From the NCBI GenBank assembly GCA_041665025.1, contig JBAYJP010000005.1:11056-75055 (forward strand): a stretch of 64,000 nucleotides of DNA. Direction: 5' to 3'. Under the pieces are notes generated by a model. That model had not been told where the DNA came from and did not search any database. It worked only from the letters and a program-made list of their open reading frames with translations. This stretch comes from Candidatus Magasanikiibacteriota bacterium (GTDB lineage: Bacteria; Patescibacteriota; Patescibacteriia; Magasanikbacterales; UBA922). Positions 2,698 through 64,000 of this stretch are shown one piece after another. A program made the position numbers and the translations under genes. Within the stretch, counting starts at the first letter, position 1, and the number at the start of each line of letters is the position of its first letter.

Positions 2698-2745
2698 TGT
2701 TTTGACAAATTAGATTATAATTTATACATTTGTTAATGATAAAAA

Positions 2746-2785
2746 AACAACCTCGATTGATTCGAGATTGTTTTTATTTTTCTTC
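2746..2785. terminator. Hairpin aacaacctcga-ttgat-tcgagattgtt flanked by an A-run on the left and a T-run on the right. Bidirectional terminator candidate.
   Basis: 11 bp stem with 1 mismatch and a 5 nt loop. TTTTTATTTTT follows on the plus strand and AAAAAAA precedes it, which is the T-run for the minus strand. Confidence 0.4.
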
Positions 2786-2846
2786 CGCCCTCACATTTCT
2801 CTACAAATATATTTATAAAGAAAGGGGATTGGTAGGGCGGGAGAGA

Positions 2847-3140
2847 CTACTTTCTCTGGCAGACGCGGGAGATGGACTCCCACGTGTTGACGAGGAAGCC
2901 CTTGAGGCTTCTCAGGACGTGGAACGTGTAGTTCCACGTGTCTACGAATAGGGTGGCGAGAGGGCCGCCGAGGAGCTCGGCGGCGCAGCCGAAGAAGATT
3001 CCCTCGATCAGGAGGGCGGCGGGGAATTCAAGGAGTCCGAAGACTCCTCGTCGTTCGCAGGCGACCGCCGTGTAATAGGCGGCGATCCCGAACAGCGTTG
3101 TGAGCGCTAAGAGCGCTCGGATTTTCGCTTTGCGTTCCAC
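2847..3140 (-). CDS. Small GC-rich hydrophobic protein, possibly GlsB/YeaQ/YmgE-like. GTG start.
   Basis: About 96 aa with two hydrophobic segments separated by ERRGVFG. Codons are strongly G/C-ending (GCC, CTC, ATC, GGC), unlike the flanking genes. An AGGAGT Shine-Dalgarno sits 4 nt before GTG at 3138-3140. The six-frame ORF is longer (2847..3191). Confidence 0.5.
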   Translation of the reverse strand: MERKAKIRALLALTTLFGIAAYYTAVACERRGVFGLLEFPAALLIEGIFFGCAAELLGGPLATLFVDTWNYTFHVLRSLKGFLVNTWESISRVCQRK

Positions 3141-3173
3141 GCAGACTCCTTTTTTGCCAGGGTTTGAGAAAAA

Positions 3174-3202
3174 ACAATACCAGAAAAACATGATATTGTC
3201 AA
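3174..3202 (-). promoter_or_regulatory. Sigma70-like promoter for the small GC-rich gene (TTGACA-17-TATTGT on the minus strand)
   Basis: Reverse complement of 3197-3202 is TTGACA and of 3174-3179 is TATTGT, with a 17 nt spacer. Lies 35 to 60 nt upstream of the GTG. Confidence 0.4.
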
Positions 3203-41420: not shown

Positions 41421-41427
41421 AATAAAG

Positions 41428-41501
41428 TGGGCATGGATGGACTTGAACCGTCGACATCCACCTTATAAGGGTGGCGCTCTAACCAACTGAGCTACATGCC
41501 C
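41428..41501 (-). tRNA. tRNA-Ile with a TAT (UAU) anticodon
   Basis: Reverse complement GGGCATGTAGCTCAGTTGGTTAGAGCGCCACCCTTATAAGGTGG...GGTTCAAGTCC...CATGCCCA. Ile-type D-arm; anticodon loop CTTATAA. One C-A mismatch in the T-stem. Confidence 0.7.
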
Positions 41502-53536: not shown

Positions 53537-53833
53537 ATGGGTTTTGTCCAGAATAAAAAAGAACTTCTACAGATTTTATCGGGGATAAAAGATATTTCTT
53601 TAATGGAAAATTTTTTGAATGATTTGTTAACCCCTGCTGAAATAAAGGATATTGTAATGCGTTTGCAAATTGTTAAACTGTTGCATCAAGGCGTAACCCA
53701 GCGCGAAGTAGCAAAGAAACTCGGAGTGAGCATTTCAAAAGTAGAGCGGGGTGCGCGTGAATTGTTGGATAAAAAAGGAGGATTTGCGAAAATATTCCGT
53801 CTTCGTCCCACTAGGCGGGACTACGCCGGATAA
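53537..53833 (+). CDS. TrpR-related YerC/YecD-family DNA-binding protein
   Basis: LTPAEIKDIVMRLQIVKLLHQGVTQREVAKKLGVSISKVERG HTH typical of YerC/YecD. Confidence 0.55.
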   Translation: MGFVQNKKELLQILSGIKDISLMENFLNDLLTPAEIKDIVMRLQIVKLLHQGVTQREVAKKLGVSISKVERGARELLDKKGGFAKIFRLRPTRRDYAG

Positions 53834-53952
53834 ATTGGATATTTTTATGTATCGTAATATGTGTATACTATCTCGTGTCTGGCGATGGGCTTCTAGAGAT
53901 TAGCAAGCCCGATTTTGAGTTAGTATTATTTTAACTGCATCGGGTTTGCCCG

Positions 53953-55302
53953 ATGTTTTTGTATTTAGTCTTAATCGTAATCCTTATGAACAACTACCAC
54001 ATCAAACTTACAGAAAAAGATATCCCAGAGTCATATTTGAATCTTTCATATTATCTAGACAAATACTACGGCAAACTTCCTGATCCCCCGTTGCATCCGG
54101 GTACAAAACAACCTGCTGGCCCGCAAGATTTGTCCCCCATATTTCCGATGGGCGTGATTATGCAAGAAGTAAGCTTGGACGAGTTTATTCCTATCCCCGA
54201 CGAAGTGCGTGAATTATACAAAATGTTTCGTCCGTCTCCGCTTATTCGCGCGTATAGATTGGAAAAAGAATTGGACACGCCGGCGCATATCTATTACAAA
54301 TACGAAGGCGGCAATGCAACTGGTAGCCATAAATTAAATAGTGCTTTAGCCCAAGCATATTACAATAAGCAGGAAGGTGTTGAGACAATCGTGACTGAAA
54401 CGGGGGCAGGGCAGTGGGGTTCTGCGTTAAGCATCGCGTGCCATTATTTTGGGCTCAAGTGCAAAGTATTTATGGTGCGTATTTCATACGAGCAGAAGCC
54501 ATATCGTAAAGTGATTATGAAGATGTATGGATCAGACGTCTATTCAAGCCCTTCAATTCAAACAGAATATGGTCGTAAAGTTTTGGAACATGATCCAGAG
54601 ACGCCCGGTAGTCTTGGTATAGCTATTAGTGAAGCGCTCGAGCTTGCAGTACAAGATGAAAAAACAAAATACGCGCTTGGCAGTGTACTTAATCATGTCT
54701 TGCTTCATCAAACAGTAATTGGACAAGAAGCAAAAAAACAAATGGAACTTGCAGGAGAATATCCAGATATGGTAATCGGATGCTGTGGAGGAGGAAGCAA
54801 TTTCGCAGGCATTGCATTTCCATTTATTGCAGATACATTGTCTGGTGTGGAGACAAGCACTCGCTTTATTGGCGTAGAGCCGGTATCGTGTCCGTCGCTT
54901 ACCAAGGGAGAATACAAATACGATTTTGGTGATACTGCACAAATGACCCCACTTCTCAAAATGAAAACGTTAGGTTCGGATTTTATTCCAAGTAAGATTC
55001 ATGCAGGCGGACTTCGCTATCATGGTATGGCACCGCTTGTTTCGTTTTTGCATGAAGAAAAATTTATCGAAGCGCGCGCGTATGATCAATTGGAAGTATT
55101 TGAAGCAGGTACGCAGTTTGCGCGCACTGAAGGAATTATCCCGGCTCCGGAATCATCGCATGCAATAAAAGCAGCAATAGATGAGGCGATGAAGTGCAAA
55201 GAGAGCGGGGAAGAAAAAGTTATATTGTTTAATTTATCAGGGAATGGATTACTTGATTTGCAGGGATATGATGATTACTTAGCGGGGAAGTTGAGGAATT
55301 AA
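53953..55302 (+). CDS. TrpB-like PLP-dependent enzyme (tryptophan synthase beta-2 type)
   Basis: Long TrpB2-type N terminus. [11 protein letters not shown] is the PLP-lysine region and [16 protein letters not shown] the glycine-rich loop. Confidence 0.75.
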
Positions 55303-55304
55303 AA

Positions 55305-55330
55305 AACAACCTCGCTTTTGCAAGGTTGTC
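55305..55330. terminator. Hairpin caacct-cgcttttgca-aggttg preceded by an A-run. Shares the AAAAACAACCTCG left flank with the hairpin at 2746.
   Basis: T-run on the minus strand; lies 70 nt past the stop of the small GC-rich gene. Confidence 0.4.
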
Positions 55331-55399
55331 GTTCTTTCCTCTGTTTCCTGTAATCAAGAAACAAAGGAATGGAAGCTGGGAGGTAGGTCATTCCCCAGC

Positions 55400-55576
55400 T
55401 TAGCTCCGCTCGGGGGTGCGGAACAGGCGCCACTCGAGGATGGCGCCGACGATGCCAAAGGCAATGGCGCCGAGGATGGCACCAGGCTTGCCTTCGCCCG
55501 GTCCCACGAGTGTGGACAGCGCGGCGCCAGCAAAGGCACCGGCTACCGCCAAGTGGGAAGTAATCAGACCTTCCAC
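55400..55576 (-). CDS. GlsB/YeaQ/YmgE-like small membrane protein (Transgly_assoc-like), GC-rich with a GTG start
   Basis: VEGLITSHLAVAGAFAGAALSTLVGPGEGKPGAILGAIAFGIVGAILEW matches the YeaQ pattern PGKDGGG...ILGIVGA..GGW. AAGGAGG lies 6 nt before the GTG. Codons are strongly G/C-ending. Confidence 0.5.
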   Translation of the reverse strand: MEGLITSHLAVAGAFAGAALSTLVGPGEGKPGAILGAIAFGIVGAILEWRLFRTPERS

Positions 55577-55684
55577 GGTTTTCCTCCTTTCCGTGGAAGA
55601 ACACACTCGTTACTAAGCGGGATGTCCGTTTTTCACATGTGTGTTGTTGATAGTCTATACGTTTATAGATCTCTAGTCAAAGAT

Positions 55685-56077
55685 ATGAAAATAATATTAT
55701 TGGATATTTCACAACTCAAAACTCACGAAAAAACTTCTCCCAAACGTGTTAGAAAGGTTGTTGAATTGATCAAAAAGAAAGGCCAATTTATAAAGCCAAT
55801 TATTGTTGAAAAAAATACACATGTTATTCTCGATGGCCATCACCGTATCGAAGCATTAAAAAAATTAGGATACACAAGAGCGCCGTGTTTTTTGGTTGAT
55901 TATATGGATGATGAAGTGAGGGTTTATTTGAGAAGAAAAGATTTGCCCATGAATTTGATCAAGCAATTTATTTTGAGCGTTGCGTTGACTGATAATTCTT
56001 TTGAAAGGAAGACGACAAGACATTATATTCCGGATAGGAGAGGAAAGATACATGTGGCATTAGAGAAGTTGTTATGA
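55685..56077 (+). CDS. ParB/Srx-like nuclease-domain protein (small)
   Basis: MKIILLDISQLKTHEKTSPKRV...IILDGHHRIEALKKLGY. Start at the ATG at 55685. The six-frame ORF extends upstream through the antisense strand of the GC island. Confidence 0.5.
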   Translation: MKIILLDISQLKTHEKTSPKRVRKVVELIKKKGQFIKPIIVEKNTHVILDGHHRIEALKKLGYTRAPCFLVDYMDDEVRVYLRRKDLPMNLIKQFILSVALTDNSFERKTTRHYIPDRRGKIHVALEKLL

Positions 56078-56168
56078 ATTACAAAGATAAAATAATATGA
56101 ACCCATTTGTTTCTCTCTTGTATTTTTTTGCTTAGTTAACTACAATTAAAGCGCGAAGGACAAAATGT

Positions 56169-57407
56169 ATGAAATTATCAAAATTATTAATGGCTATCTG
56201 TATAAGCGCAATTTTCACCCTGGGCATTTTTGGTTTGCATCTGTCTGCTCCAAGCGTGATAAATAATTTTTCAGCAGATAGCAACCGGATTTCGGATGCC
56301 TTCGCAAAAGACATGTATGCATACCACCAAACAAACCCGGAGTTTGCCAGGCGCATAGTTACTTCTTCATTGATTGAAACAGTTCATGTGGTATGTGGCT
56401 TAGATTATGCCTACAGCTTTGTATGGGTAAATTTTAGTTTGTTATTTTTGTGCGGAATTATTTTGTATTATCTTGCGCGAAGTTTTTCACTGTCACATCG
56501 CACCTCACTTTTGACCGTTGCCTTATTTTATACAAGTTTTACTATTTTGTTTGCTTTTTTTGCAGATATTTTCAGCTACGACGACCCGCTGCAATATGTA
56601 TGTATATTCTTGACTATGCTTGCGCTATCGCATAGACAATGGTTTTTTGCTTCATGCGCGTGGTTTGTTGCAGTGTTTGCTCGCGAGACCTCAGTTTTAC
56701 TCATTCCCGGTTTGTTATTGTTATTTTGGTCCTCGCATATTACTCAAGAGTTGCCTCTAAGAAAAAAAATAATATATTTTGCTTTGACTTTTGGAGTTCC
56801 TATTGCGATGTATGTAGGACTTATATATATGTATTTGAGCCATATCAATTTTCTTGAAATGAGTTCGCAGTATTTCCAAAATGAACGCTGGTCGCATGTT
56901 GCTTTTAATTTTGGAAGTCTTCAACAAAGCAGTGAAACCATTATCTCGTTATTTCTGGCAAGTGGAATTATTGTCTACGCACTGTATCACTATATTGTCT
57001 CAGGTTTATCTACAGCTTTTGACAAAAAAGTCTTGCTTGCTTTTCTCATTACCAGCGCAATAAATATACCTCTTGTGTTGCTTGGAGCTCGGGCACGGGA
57101 AGTGCGGTTATTCGCATTTCCTCTTGTATTTATGTGGCCTTTTGCAGGTTGGTATGTGAGTAGGGTTCTCAAGGTTTTTCCGTTTAAAGAATATGTGGAA
57201 AGCTGGCGCAAGAGAGAACACCTCATTTCAAATACTATATTTTTAGTCTTTGGCCTCGTATTAATAGGTGTAGCGTACTTATTTTCTTGGTATGTATATC
57301 AACCGATTAGCAGTGCCGGCATATATTTTCAGATGTATATTTTTGTCCTCTTAGTGTTCGTGATTATTTATGAGCTCATTACTTTTCAGGTTAGAAGTGA
57401 TGTGTAG
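56169..57407 (+). CDS. Polytopic integral membrane protein of unknown function (possible GT-C/polymerase-like)
   Basis: At least 10 TM helices; no diagnostic motif. Confidence 0.35.
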   Translation: MKLSKLLMAICISAIFTLGIFGLHLSAPSVINNFSADSNRISDAFAKDMYAYHQTNPEFARRIVTSSLIETVHVVCGLDYAYSFVWVNFSLLFLCGIILYYLARSFSLSHRTSLLTVALFYTSFTILFAFFADIFSYDDPLQYVCIFLTMLALSHRQWFFASCAWFVAVFARETSVLLIPGLLLLFWSSHITQELPLRKKIIYFALTFGVPIAMYVGLIYMYLSHINFLEMSSQYFQNERWSHVAFNFGSLQQSSETIISLFLASGIIVYALYHYIVSGLSTAFDKKVLLAFLITSAINIPLVLLGARAREVRLFAFPLVFMWPFAGWYVSRVLKVFPFKEYVESWRKREHLISNTIFLVFGLVLIGVAYLFSWYVYQPISSAGIYFQMYIFVLLVFVIIYELITFQVRSDV

Positions 57408-57471
57408 TTTGCCTCTTGTTTTTATAGTCGAGTTTAGATACAATTTAAGTATAATTATTAAAAATTGAGTT

Positions 57472-57972
57472 ATGGCGAGACATTCTGAACTTAGGTTGGT
57501 ACCTCCACTGTCTGAAGATGAACGTAGTCCTGCTTTGCGTGTTATAAAAAAAGAGAGTAGGTTAAACTCTAAAGAGTTGGATGAATATAAGGAACCAAGT
57601 GAAAGAGAAAAAGAAGTTAGCAAGACAAAAAATAGAATCCTTGGTTGCCTTCAGCGCAAGGATGTTGATGGCTTGGTTTCGAATTTGGTTAAGCTGGACA
57701 AATTATTTGTAGGTCGAGATGAAACCATGCTTAGTAATAGTTCTGATGTTCTCAGATCTCAAGTAATAGGTTTTTTCGATAGTATTAAATTCCAGCAAAC
57801 ATTAAAAAATTATCATCTAGAATTGAAAATACAAATGTGTGAGGGGCAAATGGAATTGTTGCTTGGTGAAAATAAAAATGCAGGAAGTAAATTACCTGCT
57901 CAAATTATGTTAATGCAAGAAGGAAATACAGAAATATATATGGGGTCTAAAACATTAGAAACAGAAGATTAA
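57472..57972 (+). CDS. Hypothetical protein
   Basis: ORF only. Confidence 0.3.
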   Translation: MARHSELRLVPPLSEDERSPALRVIKKESRLNSKELDEYKEPSEREKEVSKTKNRILGCLQRKDVDGLVSNLVKLDKLFVGRDETMLSNSSDVLRSQVIGFFDSIKFQQTLKNYHLELKIQMCEGQMELLLGENKNAGSKLPAQIMLMQEGNTEIYMGSKTLETED

Positions 57973-57986
57973 CATAAGTTATGTAT

Positions 57987-59135
57987 ATGTCCAAAAAACA
58001 AATAATTGTCTCAGGTATTCAACCAACGGGCAATCTTCATATTGGAAATTATCTAGGCGCAGTGAAAAATTGGGTAGAACTGCAAAATTCTGGGAAATAT
58101 CAGATGTATATTTTTATTGCAGATTATCATTCACTCACGGGCAATATGAAGCCCAAAGAGCGCCGCGCACAGATTATGCGTACAGCCGCAGAACTTTTGG
58201 CAGCCGGAATTGATCCAGAGAAGACAGTTTTTTGGGTACAGTCTCATGTGCCAGAGCACACTGAATTGGCGTGGGTGTTTAACAGTATAACTCCAATAGG
58301 TGAATTAAAAAGGATGACACAGTTTAAGGATAAGGCAGGTATTAGCGATTATGAGGAAGTAATTGATGAAATTTATAAATATGAAAAAAATAGATTGATT
58401 TTAACTATACTTGCTGAGAGGATGGAAAAAAATAGTGTAAAATATAAGCAACAGAGAGACAAGGCGAAGGAACTTTTGAAAACTATTGAGAAATTAATAA
58501 TTCGGGAAGAGAACAAAGCAAATACCGGTCTTTTAACTTATCCTATTCTGCAAGCCGCAGATATTTTACTGTATCATGGCGAGATGGTACCTGTTGGCCA
58601 AGATCAAATTCAACATGTTGAACTAACTCGTGATGTCGCTCGATGGTTTAATAATCGATATAGCGATTATTTTCCTGAGACAAAACACCTTCTTACTCAC
58701 ATACCAAAAGTCATGAGTTTGGTTGAACCGCATAAAAAGATGAGCAAGAGTTTGGGTGCTGATCATGTGATAGAGCTTGCTGACGAGCCGAGTGTAATTG
58801 AGAAAAAACTCAAAAAAGCAGTGACTGCAACTGAAGGCGGAGGAGAAGCACCAGGCGTTGTTAATTTATTATCGTTATTAAAAGAATTCGGAAACAAAAA
58901 AGTTCATGATGAATTTGTAAAAGCAGAAAAAGATGGAACTATTCGTTATGGCGATTTGAAAAAAGTGCTTGGAGAATCAATTTCAACATATTTTGCAGAC
59001 TTTAGAAGTCGTCGAGCTGAATTGCTTGATAATCATGGTGAACTTGCAGAGATTCTTGGCAAAGGTGCGCAAAAAGCGCAACTAGTTGCGTCGAAGACAA
59101 TGGAAGATGTGAGAGGATTGATAGGAGTAAGATAA
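57987..59135 (+). CDS. trpS: Tryptophan--tRNA ligase with an insertion of about 50 aa
   Basis: HIGH-type QPTGNLHIGNY, YPILQAADIL and KMSKS. An extra segment lies between KDKAG and GLLTYP. Confidence 0.85.
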   Translation: MSKKQIIVSGIQPTGNLHIGNYLGAVKNWVELQNSGKYQMYIFIADYHSLTGNMKPKERRAQIMRTAAELLAAGIDPEKTVFWVQSHVPEHTELAWVFNSITPIGELKRMTQFKDKAGISDYEEVIDEIYKYEKNRLILTILAERMEKNSVKYKQQRDKAKELLKTIEKLIIREENKANTGLLTYPILQAADILLYHGEMVPVGQDQIQHVELTRDVARWFNNRYSDYFPETKHLLTHIPKVMSLVEPHKKMSKSLGADHVIELADEPSVIEKKLKKAVTATEGGGEAPGVVNLLSLLKEFGNKKVHDEFVKAEKDGTIRYGDLKKVLGESISTYFADFRSRRAELLDNHGELAEILGKGAQKAQLVASKTMEDVRGLIGVR

Positions 59136-61726: not shown

Positions 61727-64000
61727 ATGGCCATACGGAAAAAAGTTTTACCCCTATTTCTTTTTTCTATTTTATTTTTTTCATTAATTCCTTTTGTATC
61801 AGCCGACGCTCTCACATACGGATTTAAAGTGCAATCATGTACGCAAGATGTTGACGGAGCCTATTTTGTGGTGAATGGAAAAAGTTTGGTCATGAAAAAT
61901 GGATGTACAACAGGGACGAGCCAGATATATGGAATTGAATATACATGTCTCAGCAACACGCGTCTGAAAGTCGAATGGACAGACGAGTGTCCGGTCCAGA
62001 CTCCGGAACCTGAGCCATCTCCCGAACCTACACCCGAACCAACTCCAGCTCCTGCACCCACTCCGACGACAACACCAACACCAGAACCTACGCCAACACC
62101 CACTCAATCACAAGAAGAATATTTGTCTTTGCCGCAATATAGCAGTTTTTATGTGAGCGGTTCATCACAAGTAGTAAATGACACAGGATTTAATATTAGA
62201 AATGGGTGGGGCAATATTGAGCTCCGGTTAGATTATTCTCCCGCATTAAATTTTCAAACATACGAGTATCTTCAATTTACTATTGATTACAATCTTCAAT
62301 CAGGCACATCTGTTTCAGCGCAGACTATTAAACAGCCAACTGAATTGTATACCATGAGCGGATGGGGAAGTGCTCTAGAATCTACGCGGTATCTTTTGCC
62401 TGCAGAGACTACAAGTGGCAATGAGGTCACTGTCCGAGTTCCACTTCAGAGCCTCGTTTCAAGCGGATATAATTCAGCGTACATTAACCATTTATTTTTG
62501 AGATTTTATCCCAACGGAGGTCCAGCCAATATTGACGTAGTACTAAAAGATGTGAAATTAGTCCGTACCATTACGGTGCCGACCCCGGTTCCTGAACCAA
62601 CACCAGAACCTACACCAGTACCTACTCCAATTCCAGAACCTGAACCAACACCAACACCAACACCGGAGCCTGTCCCAGAACCAGAACCACTTCCTGCAAA
62701 TGCCATGGTTATTGACGCAACACAGACAAAAGTCCCGTATGTTGACCGTGGAGTCCTCGGTGGTAATTCAATGAACGATCGAGCATGGGATTATAATTTC
62801 GATATATTTACAGAACTTGGAGGTAATGCACAACCTGTAGGGAATAATCTTAATCGTCCTTTGTGGCGCATGCACATGTGGGACACGGGCGTTCATAAAA
62901 ATTATTGGATGTATGGACAAGGTTTCGGCCGTATGACTGATGGACTGTATAACCCCATGATTCCTCAGACAGATAATGGTCAGACAGTAAGTACGTATAG
63001 CTGGCAATTACAAAAACCAATGAAGGACATGCAAGTTCAATATCCGAGTGGCGAAACAACACAAAATTATTATGAAGTAGAATGGTTTGATCGTTCAGCG
63101 ACATTATCCGAAAAATTTAATCGACATGCTGTTAGTTACACCAAAAAGTCTGGCTCCACGACGCAAATTCATATCATTTCGAATCGAGAACAAACCGGTG
63201 TTACTACATTCCCTGAGCATGGCAGGTATACTCGTTTTGATTTCAAGTTATCTTCTGATGTTCAATACGCCGTGAATAGCGCCGCGCTTATTGGTAAGTC
63301 AAATCAATTTCAGATGGTACTTCGACCTGACAGAAAGTTTGAAATCCGTTTTGGAAATCAAACTGTTGTTTCTTCAGAGGTAGTTGAATTTGACCGATGG
63401 TATGGAATTGAAATATTAACTGATAATACTTCAAAAGTATGGGTTGATGGACAGATGATTGGACAAATAACATTATCATCGCTTGATATCACGCCAAGTG
63501 GTAGGTCAACAGATGTTCGATTTGGCACATTACTTAAGGATTGGGCACAAGATCCTACATTGAATGCGGAAACACAGCGTCAGGATTCATACAAATTCAA
63601 GATTGATGAACTTATGCTTGGTACATCATATTTTGGGACTAATCCTGATATGCCTCTTGATCAGACATTTGCAAATAAATACAAAAACGGAGTGATTGTG
63701 TGGCATAGTTTTGATAACAACATCATGACACTTGATGATTATGGTCAAATGGCAGAAAAAATGAACGCAGAATTGCTGTTACAACTTCCGTCTCCAAAAG
63801 AAACAACCTACGGGTCGCAATCAAATACGTGGACAGGGTTTTTCAAAGATTTATACAGCGTTGAAGGGCTGACCGCAATGATTAAATATATGGTCGGAAC
63901 GCCAGACGCAGACTATGTACAAAAAGTTGAAGAATTGAAACAAGCTGGATGGCCAGTTAATGTTGCCCAGTACAATTATGCAAACTTGCGTGCCAGTCGT
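61727..64000 (+). CDS. Large secreted multidomain protein with two Pro/Thr/Glu linkers (3' partial; runs off the window)
   Basis: Manual translation from the ATG at 61727 stays open to 64000 and is absent from the ORF track because no stop is reached. It has a signal peptide and the linkers PEPEPSPEPTPEPTPAPAPTPTTTPTPEPTPTPT and PTPVPEPTPEPTPVPTPIPEPEPTPTPTPEPVPEPEP. Confidence 0.55.
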   Translation, partial: MAIRKKVLPLFLFSILFFSLIPFVSADALTYGFKVQSCTQDVDGAYFVVNGKSLVMKNGCTTGTSQIYGIEYTCLSNTRLKVEWTDECPVQTPEPEPSPEPTPEPTPAPAPTPTTTPTPEPTPTPTQSQEEYLSLPQYSSFYVSGSSQVVNDTGFNIRNGWGNIELRLDYSPALNFQTYEYLQFTIDYNLQSGTSVSAQTIKQPTELYTMSGWGSALESTRYLLPAETTSGNEVTVRVPLQSLVSSGYNSAYINHLFLRFYPNGGPANIDVVLKDVKLVRTITVPTPVPEPTPEPTPVPTPIPEPEPTPTPTPEPVPEPEPLPANAMVIDATQTKVPYVDRGVLGGNSMNDRAWDYNFDIFTELGGNAQPVGNNLNRPLWRMHMWDTGVHKNYWMYGQGFGRMTDGLYNPMIPQTDNGQTVSTYSWQLQKPMKDMQVQYPSGETTQNYYEVEWFDRSATLSEKFNRHAVSYTKKSGSTTQIHIISNREQTGVTTFPEHGRYTRFDFKLSSDVQYAVNSAALIGKSNQFQMVLRPDRKFEIRFGNQTVVSSEVVEFDRWYGIEILTDNTSKVWVDGQMIGQITLSSLDITPSGRSTDVRFGTLLKDWAQDPTLNAETQRQDSYKFKIDELMLGTSYFGTNPDMPLDQTFANKYKNGVIVWHSFDNNIMTLDDYGQMAEKMNAELLLQLPSPKETTYGSQSNTWTGFFKDLYSVEGLTAMIKYMVGTPDADYVQKVEELKQAGWPVNVAQYNYANLRASR

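What the first reader, a model, noticed from the sequence alone, without database searches (positions are those of the whole stretch)
2746..3202. GC-rich foreign cassette encoding a tiny membrane protein with its own promoter, SD, GTG start and terminator (copy 1)
A roughly 330 bp segment with strongly G/C-ending codons (GCC, CTC, ATC, GGC, CGC) is embedded in an AT-rich genome. It carries a near-consensus promoter (TTGACA-17-TATTGT), an AGGAGT Shine-Dalgarno, a GTG start, an approximately 96 aa two-TM protein and a terminator hairpin. The left-flank sequence AAAAACAACCTCG...TTGT...TTCTTCC and the following GGGA-TGG-AGG stretch are shared with the second GC island at 55305-55606. The two are therefore paralogous copies of one acquired or mobile small-gene cassette.
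Basis: seen in the sequence. Interest (0 to 1): 0.7.

Follow-up and report, generated by a model that had tools for sequence, protein, structure and literature searches.

The report
GC-rich, hairpin-packed orphan small-protein gene
A real, self-contained little gene for an orphan two-helix membrane protein sits in an AT-rich candidate-phylum bacterial genome. Its coding part is abnormally GC-rich and folds into an extraordinary chain of hairpins, but it is not a copy of the second GC island and shows no sign of being a mobile cassette.

Summary
Window 2743-3202 (minus strand) is a complete transcription unit: a TTGACA-17-TATTGT promoter with an extended -10, an AAGGAGT Shine-Dalgarno, a GTG start, a 97-codon ORF, a structured 3'UTR and an intrinsic terminator. 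The CDS is 61% GC with GC3 0.79. The genome is 39.7% GC and host genes have GC3 of 0.24-0.54.

- The second island (55305-55680) has the same architecture but is unrelated: BLASTP E=27, and CDS, 5' region and 3'UTR are not alignable.
- The only shared sequence is a ~40-nt terminator hairpin, and a pattern written from it matches more than 118 metagenome contigs.
- Neither protein matches Transgly_assoc.
- I found no inverted ends, no duplicated target site and no further copies.
- ORF1 matches only itself among 1.84 billion representative proteins, so no donor is known.

The new finding is that both predicted transcripts are extremely structured, with z = -10.0 and -9.2. Forty-five real high-GC coding windows gave means of +0.3 and -0.5. 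The excess survives synonymous-codon permutation. An internal hairpin duplicate in ORF1 keeps its stem through compensatory changes while the peptide diverges.

My best reading is a small membrane-peptide gene under RNA-structure constraint, resembling a type I toxin or a dual-function RNA. Its function is untested, and only one strain is known.

The parts
3174..3202 (-). Sigma-70-type promoter of island 1: TTGACA, 17-nt spacer, TATTGT, with TG (extended -10) before the second hexamer
   Evidence: Promoter scan gives 10 of 12 matches and the TG flag. Sequence read. This 36-nt region is 25% GC.
3145..3151 (-). Shine-Dalgarno AAGGAGT, 4 nt upstream of the GTG start at 3140-3138
   Evidence: Read directly from the sequence.
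2847..3140 (-). ORF1: 97 codons plus TAG, for an orphan helical protein with two hydrophobic segments. NCBI calls a 114-aa version from the ATG at 3191, which lies inside the predicted promoter. GC is 0.61 and GC3 is 0.79. The CDS folds into about nine short, near-perfect hairpins.
   Evidence: ORF list. Codon table and period-3 test, p=3e-6. Third-position composition C 0.56, T 0.03. Matches only itself in the protein searches. Hydropathy. AlphaFold2. Helix list. z-scores.
2862..2947 (-). Two in-phase copies of a 32-nt hairpin module, 2916-2947 and 2862-2893, 54 nt apart. They encode FVDTWNYTFHV and LVNTWESISRV. The 9-bp stems are kept through two double compensatory changes and one wobble.
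   Evidence: Direct repeat D1 at 72% identity. Helices ACGUGGAAC/GUUCCACGU and ACGUGGGAG/CUCCCGCGU. Codon view shows 7 non-synonymous and 1 synonymous difference.
2785..2840 (-). 3'UTR structure: a 7-bp GC clamp (CCGCCCU/AGGGCGG) enclosing a 12-bp AU-rich hairpin
   Evidence: MFE and centroid of the full transcript. Helix list. Inverted repeat I1.
2737..2775 (-). Intrinsic terminator of ORF1, with a 14-bp stem, a 5-nt loop and a U7 tail. It also serves as a terminator for the convergent aldehyde dehydrogenase gene on the + strand. Its 3' arm and tail, CGAGGUUGUUUUUU, are the only sequence shared with island 2.
   Evidence: Terminator scan. Exact 13-mer search. Alignment statistics. The pattern is common in metagenomes.
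2702..2730 (+). Promoter-like site TTGACA-17-TACATT just upstream of the bidirectional terminator. It is a possible source of a short RNA antisense to the 3' end of the ORF1 mRNA. Its status is uncertain.
   Evidence: Promoter scan gives 10 of 12 matches, but 11 sites were found in the region against 5.8 expected.
55652..55680 (-). Island 2 promoter-like site TTGACT-17-TAGACT
   Evidence: Promoter scan gives 9 of 12 matches. Sequence read.
55570..55599 (-). Island 2 translation-start hairpin: a 9-bp stem CUUCCACGG/CCGUGGAAG. The SD (AAAGGAGGAAAA) lies in the 12-nt loop and the GUG start codon (55576-55574) lies inside the 3' arm.
   Evidence: Inverted repeat I3, 100% complementary. Folds. Helix list.
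55400..55576 (-). ORF2: 58 codons plus TAA, for an orphan protein with two glycine/alanine-rich hydrophobic segments and a C-terminus EWRLFRTPERS. GC is 0.66. It is unrelated to ORF1.
   Evidence: ORF list. Identical proteins P0002 and P0123, annotated hypothetical. BLASTP against ORF1 E=27. Only sub-threshold Pfam and NCBIfam hits. Hydropathy.
55305..55401 (-). Island 2 3'UTR: a 9-bp hairpin (55373-55401), a 15-bp AU-rich hairpin (55336-55369) and an 11-bp terminator (55305-55330) followed by U6. The terminator abuts the stop codon of the TrpB-like gene.
   Evidence: Folds. Helix list. Terminator scan.

Best explanation
The region 2743-3202 is an autonomous minus-strand gene for an orphan small membrane protein of 97 aa with two hydrophobic helices and a long amphipathic C-terminal helix. 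Its mRNA is under strong constraint to fold into a chain of short, stable hairpins. I infer that the GC-rich, C-ending codon usage is kept because it builds those stems, and is not only a leftover of foreign origin.

The most likely mode of action is that of a type I toxin or a dual-function RNA. A host-type promoter makes a very stable, heavily folded transcript. The structure limits or times translation of a membrane-inserting peptide. In island 2 the start codon is buried in a 9-bp stem. Triple-hairpin 3' ends would protect the RNA from exonucleases.

Island 2 is a second, independent example of the same design, not a paralogue.

Shown here: the anatomy, the composition, the orphan status, the predicted structure excess and the intra-gene compensatory changes.
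Inferred: transcription, translation, membrane insertion and any toxic or regulatory role.
For: - Complete expression signals are present in both islands.
- ORF1 shows a coding signature: period-3 GC at p=3e-6 and NNY codons 96% C-ending.
- The GC excess begins and ends at the CDS borders in both islands. This argues for real coding and against a randomly inserted foreign fragment.
- The predicted transcripts are extremely structured: z = -10.0 (432 nt) and -9.2 (351 nt), with no shuffle as stable.
- Controls are far weaker. Forty-five 294-nt windows of real high-GC3 coding sequence gave z = +0.27 (sd 1.06) and -0.46 (sd 1.36), with a minimum of -4.2. A Gly/Ala-rich lipoprotein island in L109 gave z of about 0.
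- The excess survives codon-order shuffling (z -5.2 and -3.7) and synonymous-codon permutation that keeps the protein (z -3.3 and -3.1).
- Eight perfect hairpin seeds of 7 bp or more occur in island 1, against 0.28 expected.
- The duplicated module in ORF1 keeps its stem through two double compensatory changes, while 7 of its 8 changed codons alter the amino acid.
- Host genes that are normally highly expressed (cold-shock protein, GAPDH, PGK) have third-position C of 0.11-0.21, so translational selection does not explain the codon usage.
- ORF2 fits the published search criteria for type I toxins (PMC2887945): under 70 aa, a membrane segment, and an aromatic and charged C-terminus.
- The locus is 100% identical in two other public assemblies.
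Against: - All structure evidence is prediction on a single strain. No orthologues exist, so there is no between-species covariation or dN/dS.
- ORF1 at 97 aa exceeds the usual size of a type I toxin (70 aa or less).
- No convincing antitoxin RNA gene was found. The only candidates are a weak + strand promoter-like site at 2702-2730 and possible read-through from the trpB-like gene across island 2.
- The hairpins are largely strand-symmetric. G-U pair counts are 9 against 8 for island 1 and 12 against 6 for island 2. Action at the DNA level or on the opposite strand is therefore not excluded.
- Part of the island 2 structure follows automatically from GGY-GCC (Gly-Ala) dipeptides.
- The period-3 signal of ORF2 is not significant, p=0.19.
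- Selection for structure does not by itself explain why third-position C (0.56) far exceeds G (0.23). A pairing-register test did not support a simple explanation.
Confidence: 0.4

Rival explanations
1. Recent horizontal acquisition. Each island is a small gene, or gene fragment, taken from an organism or element of about 60-65% GC. It has not yet drifted to host composition, and the hairpins came with it.
For: - Codon usage is completely unlike the host: GC3 0.79 against 0.24-0.54, and NNY C-fraction 0.96 against 0.11-0.44.
- tRNA-Asn lies about 900 bp away.
- Other GC-rich orphan genes with their own promoters occur in related genomes, L009 and L209.
- ORF2 gives a weak hit to DUF6223, E=2.4e-3, below the cut-off.
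Against: - There is no homologue of ORF1 among 5.8 billion clusters or 1.84 billion representatives read exhaustively. ORF2 matches only itself in the word-indexed search. A recent transfer should leave recognisable relatives.
- The GC excess stops at the start and stop codons, while the promoter, UTRs and terminator have host-like composition.
- Real high-GC coding sequence does not fold like this.
- ORF1 uses TTA, CTA, AGA and CGA, which from general knowledge are rare codons in high-GC genomes. The A of TTA (CUC UUA GCG CUC) is base-paired in stem 3102-3118.
Confidence: 0.25
2. The islands are structured non-coding RNA genes, as GC-rich intergenic regions in AT-rich genomes often are. Under this reading the ORFs are by-products of low stop-codon density in GC-rich sequence.
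For: - z-scores of -9 to -10.
- The intra-gene duplicate conserves the stem but not the peptide.
- The second hydrophobic segment of ORF1 carries three glutamates.
- Island 2 is open in four frames and shows no significant period-3 signal.
- GC-rich intergenic regions are a known signature of structured RNAs (PMC6429828). One control island, in L115, is RNase P RNA.
Against: - There is no Rfam family at gathering score, and no credible match at E up to 5.
- ORF1 has a strong period-3 GC pattern and exclusive TTC, ATC and AAC usage.
- In both islands a canonical SD sits at the right spacing before a start codon, exactly where the GC-rich part begins. The GC-rich part ends at the stop codon.
- Both products are hydrophobic helices rather than the Arg/Pro-rich text seen in the other frames.
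Confidence: 0.15
3. One reading: two paralogous copies of one mobile or acquired small-gene cassette of the Transgly_assoc type.
For: - Both islands share an exact 14-mer and a ~40-nt similar terminator.
- They have the same overall architecture and the same position, convergent with an upstream metabolic gene.
Against: - The proteins are unrelated.
- CDS, 5' region and 3'UTR are not alignable above chance.
- A pattern written from the terminator matches more than 118 metagenome contigs.
- There are no inverted ends, no target duplication and no other copies.
- PF04226 does not hit.
Confidence: 0.03
4. Assembly or binning artefact: a chimeric insertion of reads from a GC-rich organism.
For: The abrupt composition change. 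The source is a metagenome-assembled genome.
Against: - The same sequence is 100% identical over 12.7 kb and 5.0 kb in two other assemblies, an ENA contig of 440 kb and a Logan single-run contig. Island 2 is likewise present in both.
- The islands are framed by host-type promoters and terminators that fit them.
Confidence: 0.02

Closest known systems
Type I toxin-antitoxin toxin genes (hok, fst, tisB, zorO, txpA and similar)
   Same: - A small hydrophobic membrane peptide encoded in a stand-alone intergenic unit.
- A heavily folded, presumably long-lived mRNA.
- The initiation region buried in structure (GUG of ORF2 inside a 9-bp stem).
- A terminator shared with a convergent transcript.
- An aromatic and charged C-terminus in ORF2.
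   Different: - ORF1 is 97 aa with 2-3 helices; type I toxins are usually 70 aa or less with one helix.
- No antitoxin sRNA gene was identified.
- There is no tandem duplication.
- There is no sequence relation to any known toxin family.
- Extreme GC enrichment of the CDS is, to my knowledge, not a described feature of these systems.
Dual-function (coding) sRNAs such as S. aureus RNAIII/hld or B. subtilis SR1/SR1P
   Same: A multi-hairpin RNA of a few hundred nucleotides that also carries a small ORF, which for RNAIII encodes a membrane-active peptide. It has its own promoter and terminator.
   Different: No target-pairing motif or conserved loop motif was found. The hairpins here lie mostly inside the ORF. 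There is no homology.
GC-rich intergenic regions of AT-rich genomes (the GC-IGR class of structured ncRNA candidates; PMC6429828)
   Same: These islands are exactly the signal that approach detects: a long, GC-rich, structured stretch between genes of an AT-rich genome. That survey also recovered short peptide ORFs.
   Different: Here the GC excess coincides with an ORF that has an SD, a start codon and a period-3 signal. There is no Rfam family and no comparative support.
REP/BIME clusters and other palindromic extragenic repeats (ERIC, Correia, RPE)
   Same: GC-rich chains of hairpins placed after stop codons between convergent genes.
   Different: Those elements are repeated many times per genome with a shared consensus. 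Here every hairpin is different apart from one internal duplicate. No other copies were found, and the chain lies within an ORF.
Small glycine-zipper stress membrane proteins (GlsB/YeaQ/YmgE = Transgly_assoc, YMGG-like)
   Same: ORF2 has GxxxG/A-rich paired helices of similar size.
   Different: PF04226 does not hit. The best related scores are far below cut-offs: PRK10457 scores 15 bits against 129, and Gly-zipper_YMGG 14 bits against 28.9. ORF1 shows no resemblance.

Membership tests
Transgly_assoc / GlsB-YeaQ-YmgE (PF04226) | Match to the Pfam or NCBIfam model at or above the curated cut-off | tested here: not met
   PF04226 is absent from the hit lists at E<=1 for both ORFs. ORF2 against PRK10457 (hypothetical protein in NCBIfam; YeaQ by my recollection) gives E=0.023 and 15.2 bits against a cut-off of 129.
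Paralogous mobile cassette (MITE, integron cassette or similar) | Sequence similarity between copies along the element | tested here: not met
   BLASTP E=27. Local DNA alignments of CDS, 5' region and 3'UTR are no better than shuffles.
Paralogous mobile cassette (MITE, integron cassette or similar) | Defined ends (terminal inverted repeats, attC-like site) and a target-site duplication | tested here: not met
   No long-range inverted or flanking direct repeats at either island. The shared end is a terminator hairpin whose derived pattern matches more than 118 metagenome contigs.
Paralogous mobile cassette (MITE, integron cassette or similar) | Multiple copies in the genome or in other genomes | tested here: not met
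   Only two GC islands of this strength occur in the window plus about 16 kb of extra flank. ORF1 and ORF2 occur only in this organism's contigs. The rest of the 440-kb contig could not be read.
Type I toxin-antitoxin | Toxin of 70 aa or less with a membrane segment and a polar or aromatic C-terminus (criteria of PMC2887945) | tested here: inconclusive
   ORF2 fits: 58 aa, two hydrophobic segments, C-terminus EWRLFRTPERS. ORF1 does not, at 97 aa.
Type I toxin-antitoxin | A cis- or trans-encoded antitoxin sRNA with its own promoter, complementary to the toxin mRNA | tested here: inconclusive
   The only candidates are a + strand promoter-like site at 2702-2730, facing the shared terminator, and possible read-through from the trpB-like gene across island 2. 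No expression data were available.
Type I toxin-antitoxin | Toxin mRNA structure that occludes the ribosome-binding region | tested here: inconclusive
   In ORF2 the GUG lies in a perfect 9-bp stem with the SD in the loop. In ORF1 the MFE pairs GUCUGCG (spanning the SD end and the first base of the start codon) with a site 193 nt away, a long-range prediction of low certainty. These are predictions only.
Type I toxin-antitoxin | Toxicity on overexpression, relieved by the antitoxin | not testable with these tools
   This needs an experiment.
Horizontally acquired genomic islet | Atypical composition relative to the host | tested here: met
   GC 0.61 against 0.40 and GC3 0.79 against 0.24-0.54.
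Horizontally acquired genomic islet | Homologues in a plausible donor lineage | tested here: not met
   ORF1 matches only itself in 5.8 billion clusters and 1.84 billion representatives. There are no viral, phage or plasmid matches.
Horizontally acquired genomic islet | Absence from the orthologous site of close relatives | not testable with these tools
   The nearest relatives found (aldehyde dehydrogenase 75%, 66% and 64% identical) have different genes downstream, so no orthologous site exists to compare.
Known structured RNA family (Rfam 15) | Covariance-model match at the gathering score | tested here: not met
   Only four tRNAs are found in the window. The best permissive hit within either island, MIR815 at E=0.0045 and 27 bits against a cut-off of 63, is implausible in a bacterium.
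REP/BIME-type palindromic repeats | Many genomic copies sharing one consensus palindrome | tested here: not met
   The hairpin arms all differ in sequence. There is only one internal duplicate.

The most novel reading that the evidence does not exclude
These islands represent an undescribed class of genes in candidate-phylum (Magasanikbacteria-like) bacteria. In this class the selected object is a hyper-structured, GC-rich RNA made of a chain of hairpins. The RNA doubles as the message for a loosely constrained membrane peptide. Such genes would arise and diversify locally, by duplication of hairpin modules, rather than by horizontal transfer. That would explain why they are orphans, why the GC excess ends at the CDS borders, and why stems are conserved better than the peptide.
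Probability: 0.2. Interest if true: 0.7.

Novelty: new variant of a known kind. Interest (0 to 1): 0.45.

Why it matters
If the structure constraint is real, these are unusually clear natural cases of RNA folding and protein coding competing for the same nucleotides. The footprint is visible: C/G-ending codons in an AT-rich genome, rare A/T-ending codons placed where they pair, and compensatory changes that override the peptide.

Such genes would show how small membrane peptides are kept silent or stable in bacteria with tiny genomes. They might also show how orphan genes are born.

In practice, 'foreign-looking' GC islands in AT-rich genomes should not be read automatically as horizontal transfer or as non-coding RNA. 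If the islands are only unameliorated foreign genes, the finding is ordinary.

Tried and rejected
- **Rfam.** No family at gathering score or at E up to 5.
- **Paralogy of the islands.** Rejected by protein comparison, DNA alignment and segment-wise statistics.
- **Fishing for more islands with the shared terminator motif in metagenomes.** It returned more than 118 contigs, most with generic bidirectional terminators and none with a comparable adjacent island.
- **Transgly_assoc and other protein libraries.** Pfam, NCBIfam, PADLOC, PHROGs and PDB sequences gave nothing above threshold.
- **Structure comparison.** Foldseek of the AlphaFold2 model against the PDB found only generic helical bundles, all with E>2.
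- **Viral, phage and plasmid origin.** No matches. Two chance-level hits appeared: 37 nt in Gordonia phages at E=0.04, and a VirB4 gene at E=0.6.
- **Translational selection for C-ending codons.** Rejected, because cold-shock protein, GAPDH and PGK genes of the same genome have third-position C of 0.11-0.21.
- **Third-position C pairing with first-position G in codon-palindromic stems as the cause of the C bias.** Not supported for island 1, where all three pairing registers are used equally. It holds partly for island 2.
- **Enrichment of 6-bp restriction-type palindromes.** Not enriched: 6 observed against 5.6 and 4.5 expected.
- **Strand assignment from G-U pairs.** Weak: 9 against 8 for island 1, and 12 against 6 for island 2.
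- **Empty-site comparison.** This genome did not turn up in the genome-collection scan; the best hit was 57% identical. The closest aldehyde dehydrogenase relatives (75%, 66%, 64%, 60%) are not syntenic downstream.
- **Exact-protein look-ups.** ORF1, ORF2 and the TrpB-like protein returned nothing.
Full report
**Source**

The window has 39.7% GC. The only database proteins identical to the two small ORFs are annotated as hypothetical proteins of a metagenome-assembled 'Candidatus Magasanikbacteria bacterium' (MFA6427681.1 and MFA6427728.1, on a 108-kb contig). The same DNA is 100% identical over 12.7 kb and 5.0 kb in two other public assemblies: an ENA contig of 440 kb and a Logan single-run contig. 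Island 2 is present in both as well. An assembly artefact is therefore unlikely.

**1. Checking the observation**

Composition:
- In 150-nt windows, only two stretches of the 64 kb exceed 0.59 GC: 2815-3172 (peak 0.67) and 55319-55648 (peak 0.70). The mean is 0.397 with sd 0.061.
- ORF1 (2847-3140, minus strand, GTG start) has GC of 0.58/0.45/0.79 by codon position, with chi-square p = 3e-6. All 8 Phe codons are TTC, all 5 Ile codons are ATC and 9 of 15 Leu codons are CTC.
- The 57 longer ORFs of the window, other than the two island ORFs, have GC3 of 0.24-0.54.
- The GC excess is confined to the CDS. For island 1 the values are CDS 0.61, 5'UTR 0.50, 3'UTR 0.39, promoter 0.25 and terminator 0.30. 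Island 2 behaves the same way, with CDS 0.66, UTRs 0.46 and promoter 0.31.

Expression signals:
- The promoter TTGACA-17-TATTGT has TG before the -10.
- AAGGAGT sits 4 nt before the GTG.
- The product has two hydrophobic segments. AlphaFold2 without an alignment predicts three helices at pLDDT 72.7.
- The ATG at 3191 used in the NCBI call (114 aa) lies between the -35 and -10 hexamers. I therefore prefer the GTG start.

**2. The link to the second island**

The 13-mer AAAAACAACCTCG occurs exactly twice in the window, once at the left edge of each island. It is the 3' arm plus U-tail of the minus-strand terminators.

Segment-wise local alignment against shuffles gives these results:
- Only the ~40-nt terminator is significantly similar, scoring 31 against 14.3 ± 2.2.
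- The rest of the 3'UTR scores 13 against 12.6.
- The promoter and 5'UTR score 14 against 15.9.
- The CDS scores 18 against 18.5.

The proteins are unrelated (E=27). Most are ordinary bidirectional terminators, and none had a comparable island upstream.

The flank similarity is thus a common terminator form, not the end of a shared element. No terminal inverted repeats or flanking direct repeats frame either island. No further island of this strength exists in the roughly 16 kb of the same contig read beyond the window. The 'paralogous mobile cassette' reading is not supported.

**3. Protein identity**

- ORF1 matches only itself in the word-indexed search of 5.8 billion clusters.
- It also matches only itself in an exhaustive HMMER pass over 1.84 billion representatives.
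- ORF2 matches only itself in the word-indexed search.
- Pfam, NCBIfam, PADLOC, PHROGs and PDB sequences give nothing above threshold.
- ORF2 has only compositional, sub-threshold glycine-zipper-type hits.
- Viral, phage and plasmid collections hold nothing.
- Foldseek finds only generic helical bundles.

**4. The unexpected feature: RNA structure**

Both islands fold into chains of short, near-perfect hairpins.

| Test | Island 1 | Island 2 |
|---|---|---|
| GC-rich core, minus strand (z) | -6.6 | -6.1 |
| GC-rich core, plus strand (z) | -4.1 | -3.5 |
| Whole predicted transcript (z) | -10.0 (3167 to 2736) | -9.2 (55646 to 55296) |
| CDS, codon-order shuffle (z) | -5.2 | -3.7 |
| CDS, synonymous-codon permutation (z) | -3.3 | -3.1 |
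| Perfect hairpin seeds of 7 bp or more, observed / expected | 8 / 0.28 | 2 / 0.18 |

No shuffle of the whole transcripts folded as well as the native sequence.

Controls:
- Forty-five 294-nt windows of real coding sequence from genomes of 57-68% GC (GC3 at least 0.7) gave z = +0.27 ± 1.06 for the hydrophobic ones and -0.46 ± 1.36 for the rest. The minimum was -4.2.
- A Gly/Ala-rich lipoprotein island (L109) gave z of about 0.
- Other unexplained GC islands in low-GC contigs gave values between -0.4 and -4.3.

High GC content and membrane-protein composition therefore do not explain the folding.

The two transcripts share a design without sharing sequence. After the stop codon comes a GC-clamped hairpin, then a 12-15-bp AU-rich hairpin, then the terminator. 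In island 2 the SD sits in the 12-nt loop of a perfect 9-bp hairpin, and the GUG start lies in its 3' arm.

**5. A within-gene comparison**

ORF1 contains two in-phase copies of a 32-nt module, 54 nt apart and 72% identical.
- Their stems are ACGUGGAAC/GUUCCACGU and ACGUGGGAG/CUCCCGCGU.
- The stems differ by two double compensatory changes and one A-to-G change that yields a wobble pair. No change breaks a pair.
- Of the 8 codons that differ, 7 change the amino acid: FVDTWNYTFHV against LVNTWESISRV.
- The rare A/T-ending codons also tend to sit where they pair. TTA in GAGCGCU-CUU-AGCGCUC is one example, and CGA, GGA and CTT in CGAGGAGUC/GACUCCUUG are others.

This is the only covariation-type evidence available. 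It says the stem is conserved better than the peptide.

**6. Weighing the explanations**

*Coding.* This is well supported for ORF1 by three observations: the period-3 signal, an SD and start codon exactly where the GC-rich part begins, and the end of the GC-rich part at the stop codon. Support is moderate for ORF2: it has an SD, a start and a hydrophobic product, but no significant period-3 signal and three other open frames. A purely non-coding RNA would not be expected to have composition borders at the start and stop codons.

*Recent horizontal transfer.* This explains the alien codon usage. It does not explain the orphan status, the host-like promoter, UTRs and terminator fitted tightly around the CDS, or the folding excess.

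*Translational selection.* This is excluded, because cold-shock protein, GAPDH and PGK genes of the same genome have third-position C of 0.11-0.21, against 0.56 in ORF1.

*Preferred reading (confidence about 0.4).* The islands are real small membrane-peptide genes whose synonymous sites, and part of whose peptide sequence, are shaped by selection for a very stable hairpin-chain mRNA. Functionally this most resembles type I toxin messages or dual-function RNAs. ORF2 meets the published size, membrane and C-terminus criteria for type I toxins (PMC2887945), and its start codon is predicted to be occluded. ORF1 is too long for a typical toxin, and no antitoxin gene is evident.

Caveats:
- Everything rests on one strain and on predicted folds.
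- The hairpins are nearly strand-symmetric.
- Part of the island 2 structure follows automatically from GGY-GCC Gly-Ala dipeptides.

**7. Context**

Island 1 lies between a TPP-enzyme / succinate-semialdehyde dehydrogenase operon on the + strand and an SPW-repeat membrane protein on the minus strand. It is about 900 bp from tRNA-Asn.

Island 2 lies inside a Trp-related + strand cluster: a Trp-repressor-like gene, a TrpB-like gene, the island, a SerK-like/ParB_N gene, two unknown genes, and a class I W/Y tRNA synthetase. Read-through of that cluster would produce an RNA fully antisense to ORF2.

The nearest relatives found through the dehydrogenase (75%, 66%, 64% and 60% identity) keep the TPP-enzyme/dehydrogenase pair but have other genes downstream. 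No empty-site test was possible. Two related genomes carry other GC-rich orphan genes with their own AT-rich promoters: L009 2250-3080 and L209 2575-3045. Their folding is only moderately unusual, with z between -2.3 and -3.3.

**8. Verdict**

- It is wrong about paralogy, mobility and family.
- The notable feature is the extreme predicted RNA structure coinciding with a GC excess limited to the CDS.
- This lies outside all families searched here, but within the known kind of structured small-peptide genes.
- I rate interest as moderate (0.45), because function and generality are untested.

Noticed in passing
window 41427-41501 (-): ARAGORN calls a tRNA-Ile with anticodon UAU next to a tRNA-Arg(CCG). 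From general knowledge, most bacteria read AUA with a lysidine-modified CAU tRNA, so a UAU anticodon is unusual.
   Followed up: no
window 53537-59135 (+): A Trp-related gene cluster: a Trp-repressor-like gene, a TrpB-like PALP enzyme, island 2 on the opposite strand, a ParB_N protein resembling ADP-dependent serine kinase SerK (E=7e-21, below cut-off), two unknown genes, and a class I W/Y tRNA synthetase. A TrpB-like enzyme next to a serine-kinase-like gene hints at phosphoserine-dependent tryptophan synthesis.
   Followed up: partly
L009 2250-3080: Another Magasanikbacteria MAG has a GC-rich stretch just upstream of its TPP-enzyme/dehydrogenase operon. It holds a 105-aa ORF and a 31-aa very basic ORF (MPKPPKPSKRQLKYKQRRAHKQAQATKTKKG), with what look like their own promoter and terminators. 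Folding z is about -3.
   Followed up: partly
L209 2575-3045: A relative whose dehydrogenase is 64% identical carries a 156-aa orphan ORF in a region peaking at 65% GC within a 41% GC contig. The ORF has CPGC...CREC motifs, what looks like its own AT-rich promoter, an SD and a terminator. Folding z is -2.3.
   Followed up: partly
metagenome loci L087-L204: The terminator stem AAAAACAACCTYG...CRAGGTTGTTTTT recurs in more than 118 low-GC metagenome contigs, often as a perfect bidirectional terminator. I have no explanation for why this particular stem sequence is so common.
   Followed up: partly
L147 10941-11241; L168 1235-1427; L108 10279-10497: Three unexplained GC islands in low-GC metagenome contigs have no Rfam match. 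L147 reaches 61% GC in a 29% GC contig, with + strand z of -4.3. L168 is a GC-rich small ORF behind a strong promoter-like sequence. L108 shows no structure signal.
   Followed up: partly
window 2702-2730 (+): The promoter-like site TTGACA-17-TACATT lies directly after the dehydrogenase stop codon and just before the bidirectional terminator. If it is active, it would make a ~45-nt RNA complementary to the 3' end of the ORF1 mRNA.
   Followed up: no
window 3101-3155 (+): On the + strand there are two terminator-like hairpins, 3101-3119 and 3129-3145, the second followed by T6. They lie antisense to the start region of ORF1. An antisense transcript crossing the island would end exactly opposite the SD.
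   Followed up: no
window 61728-64000 (+): A large secreted protein runs off the window end. It has Pro/Thr/Glu-rich linkers (PEPTPEPTPAPAPTP...) that cause mild GC bumps at about 61980-62100 and 62580-62700. These are unrelated to the islands.
   Followed up: no
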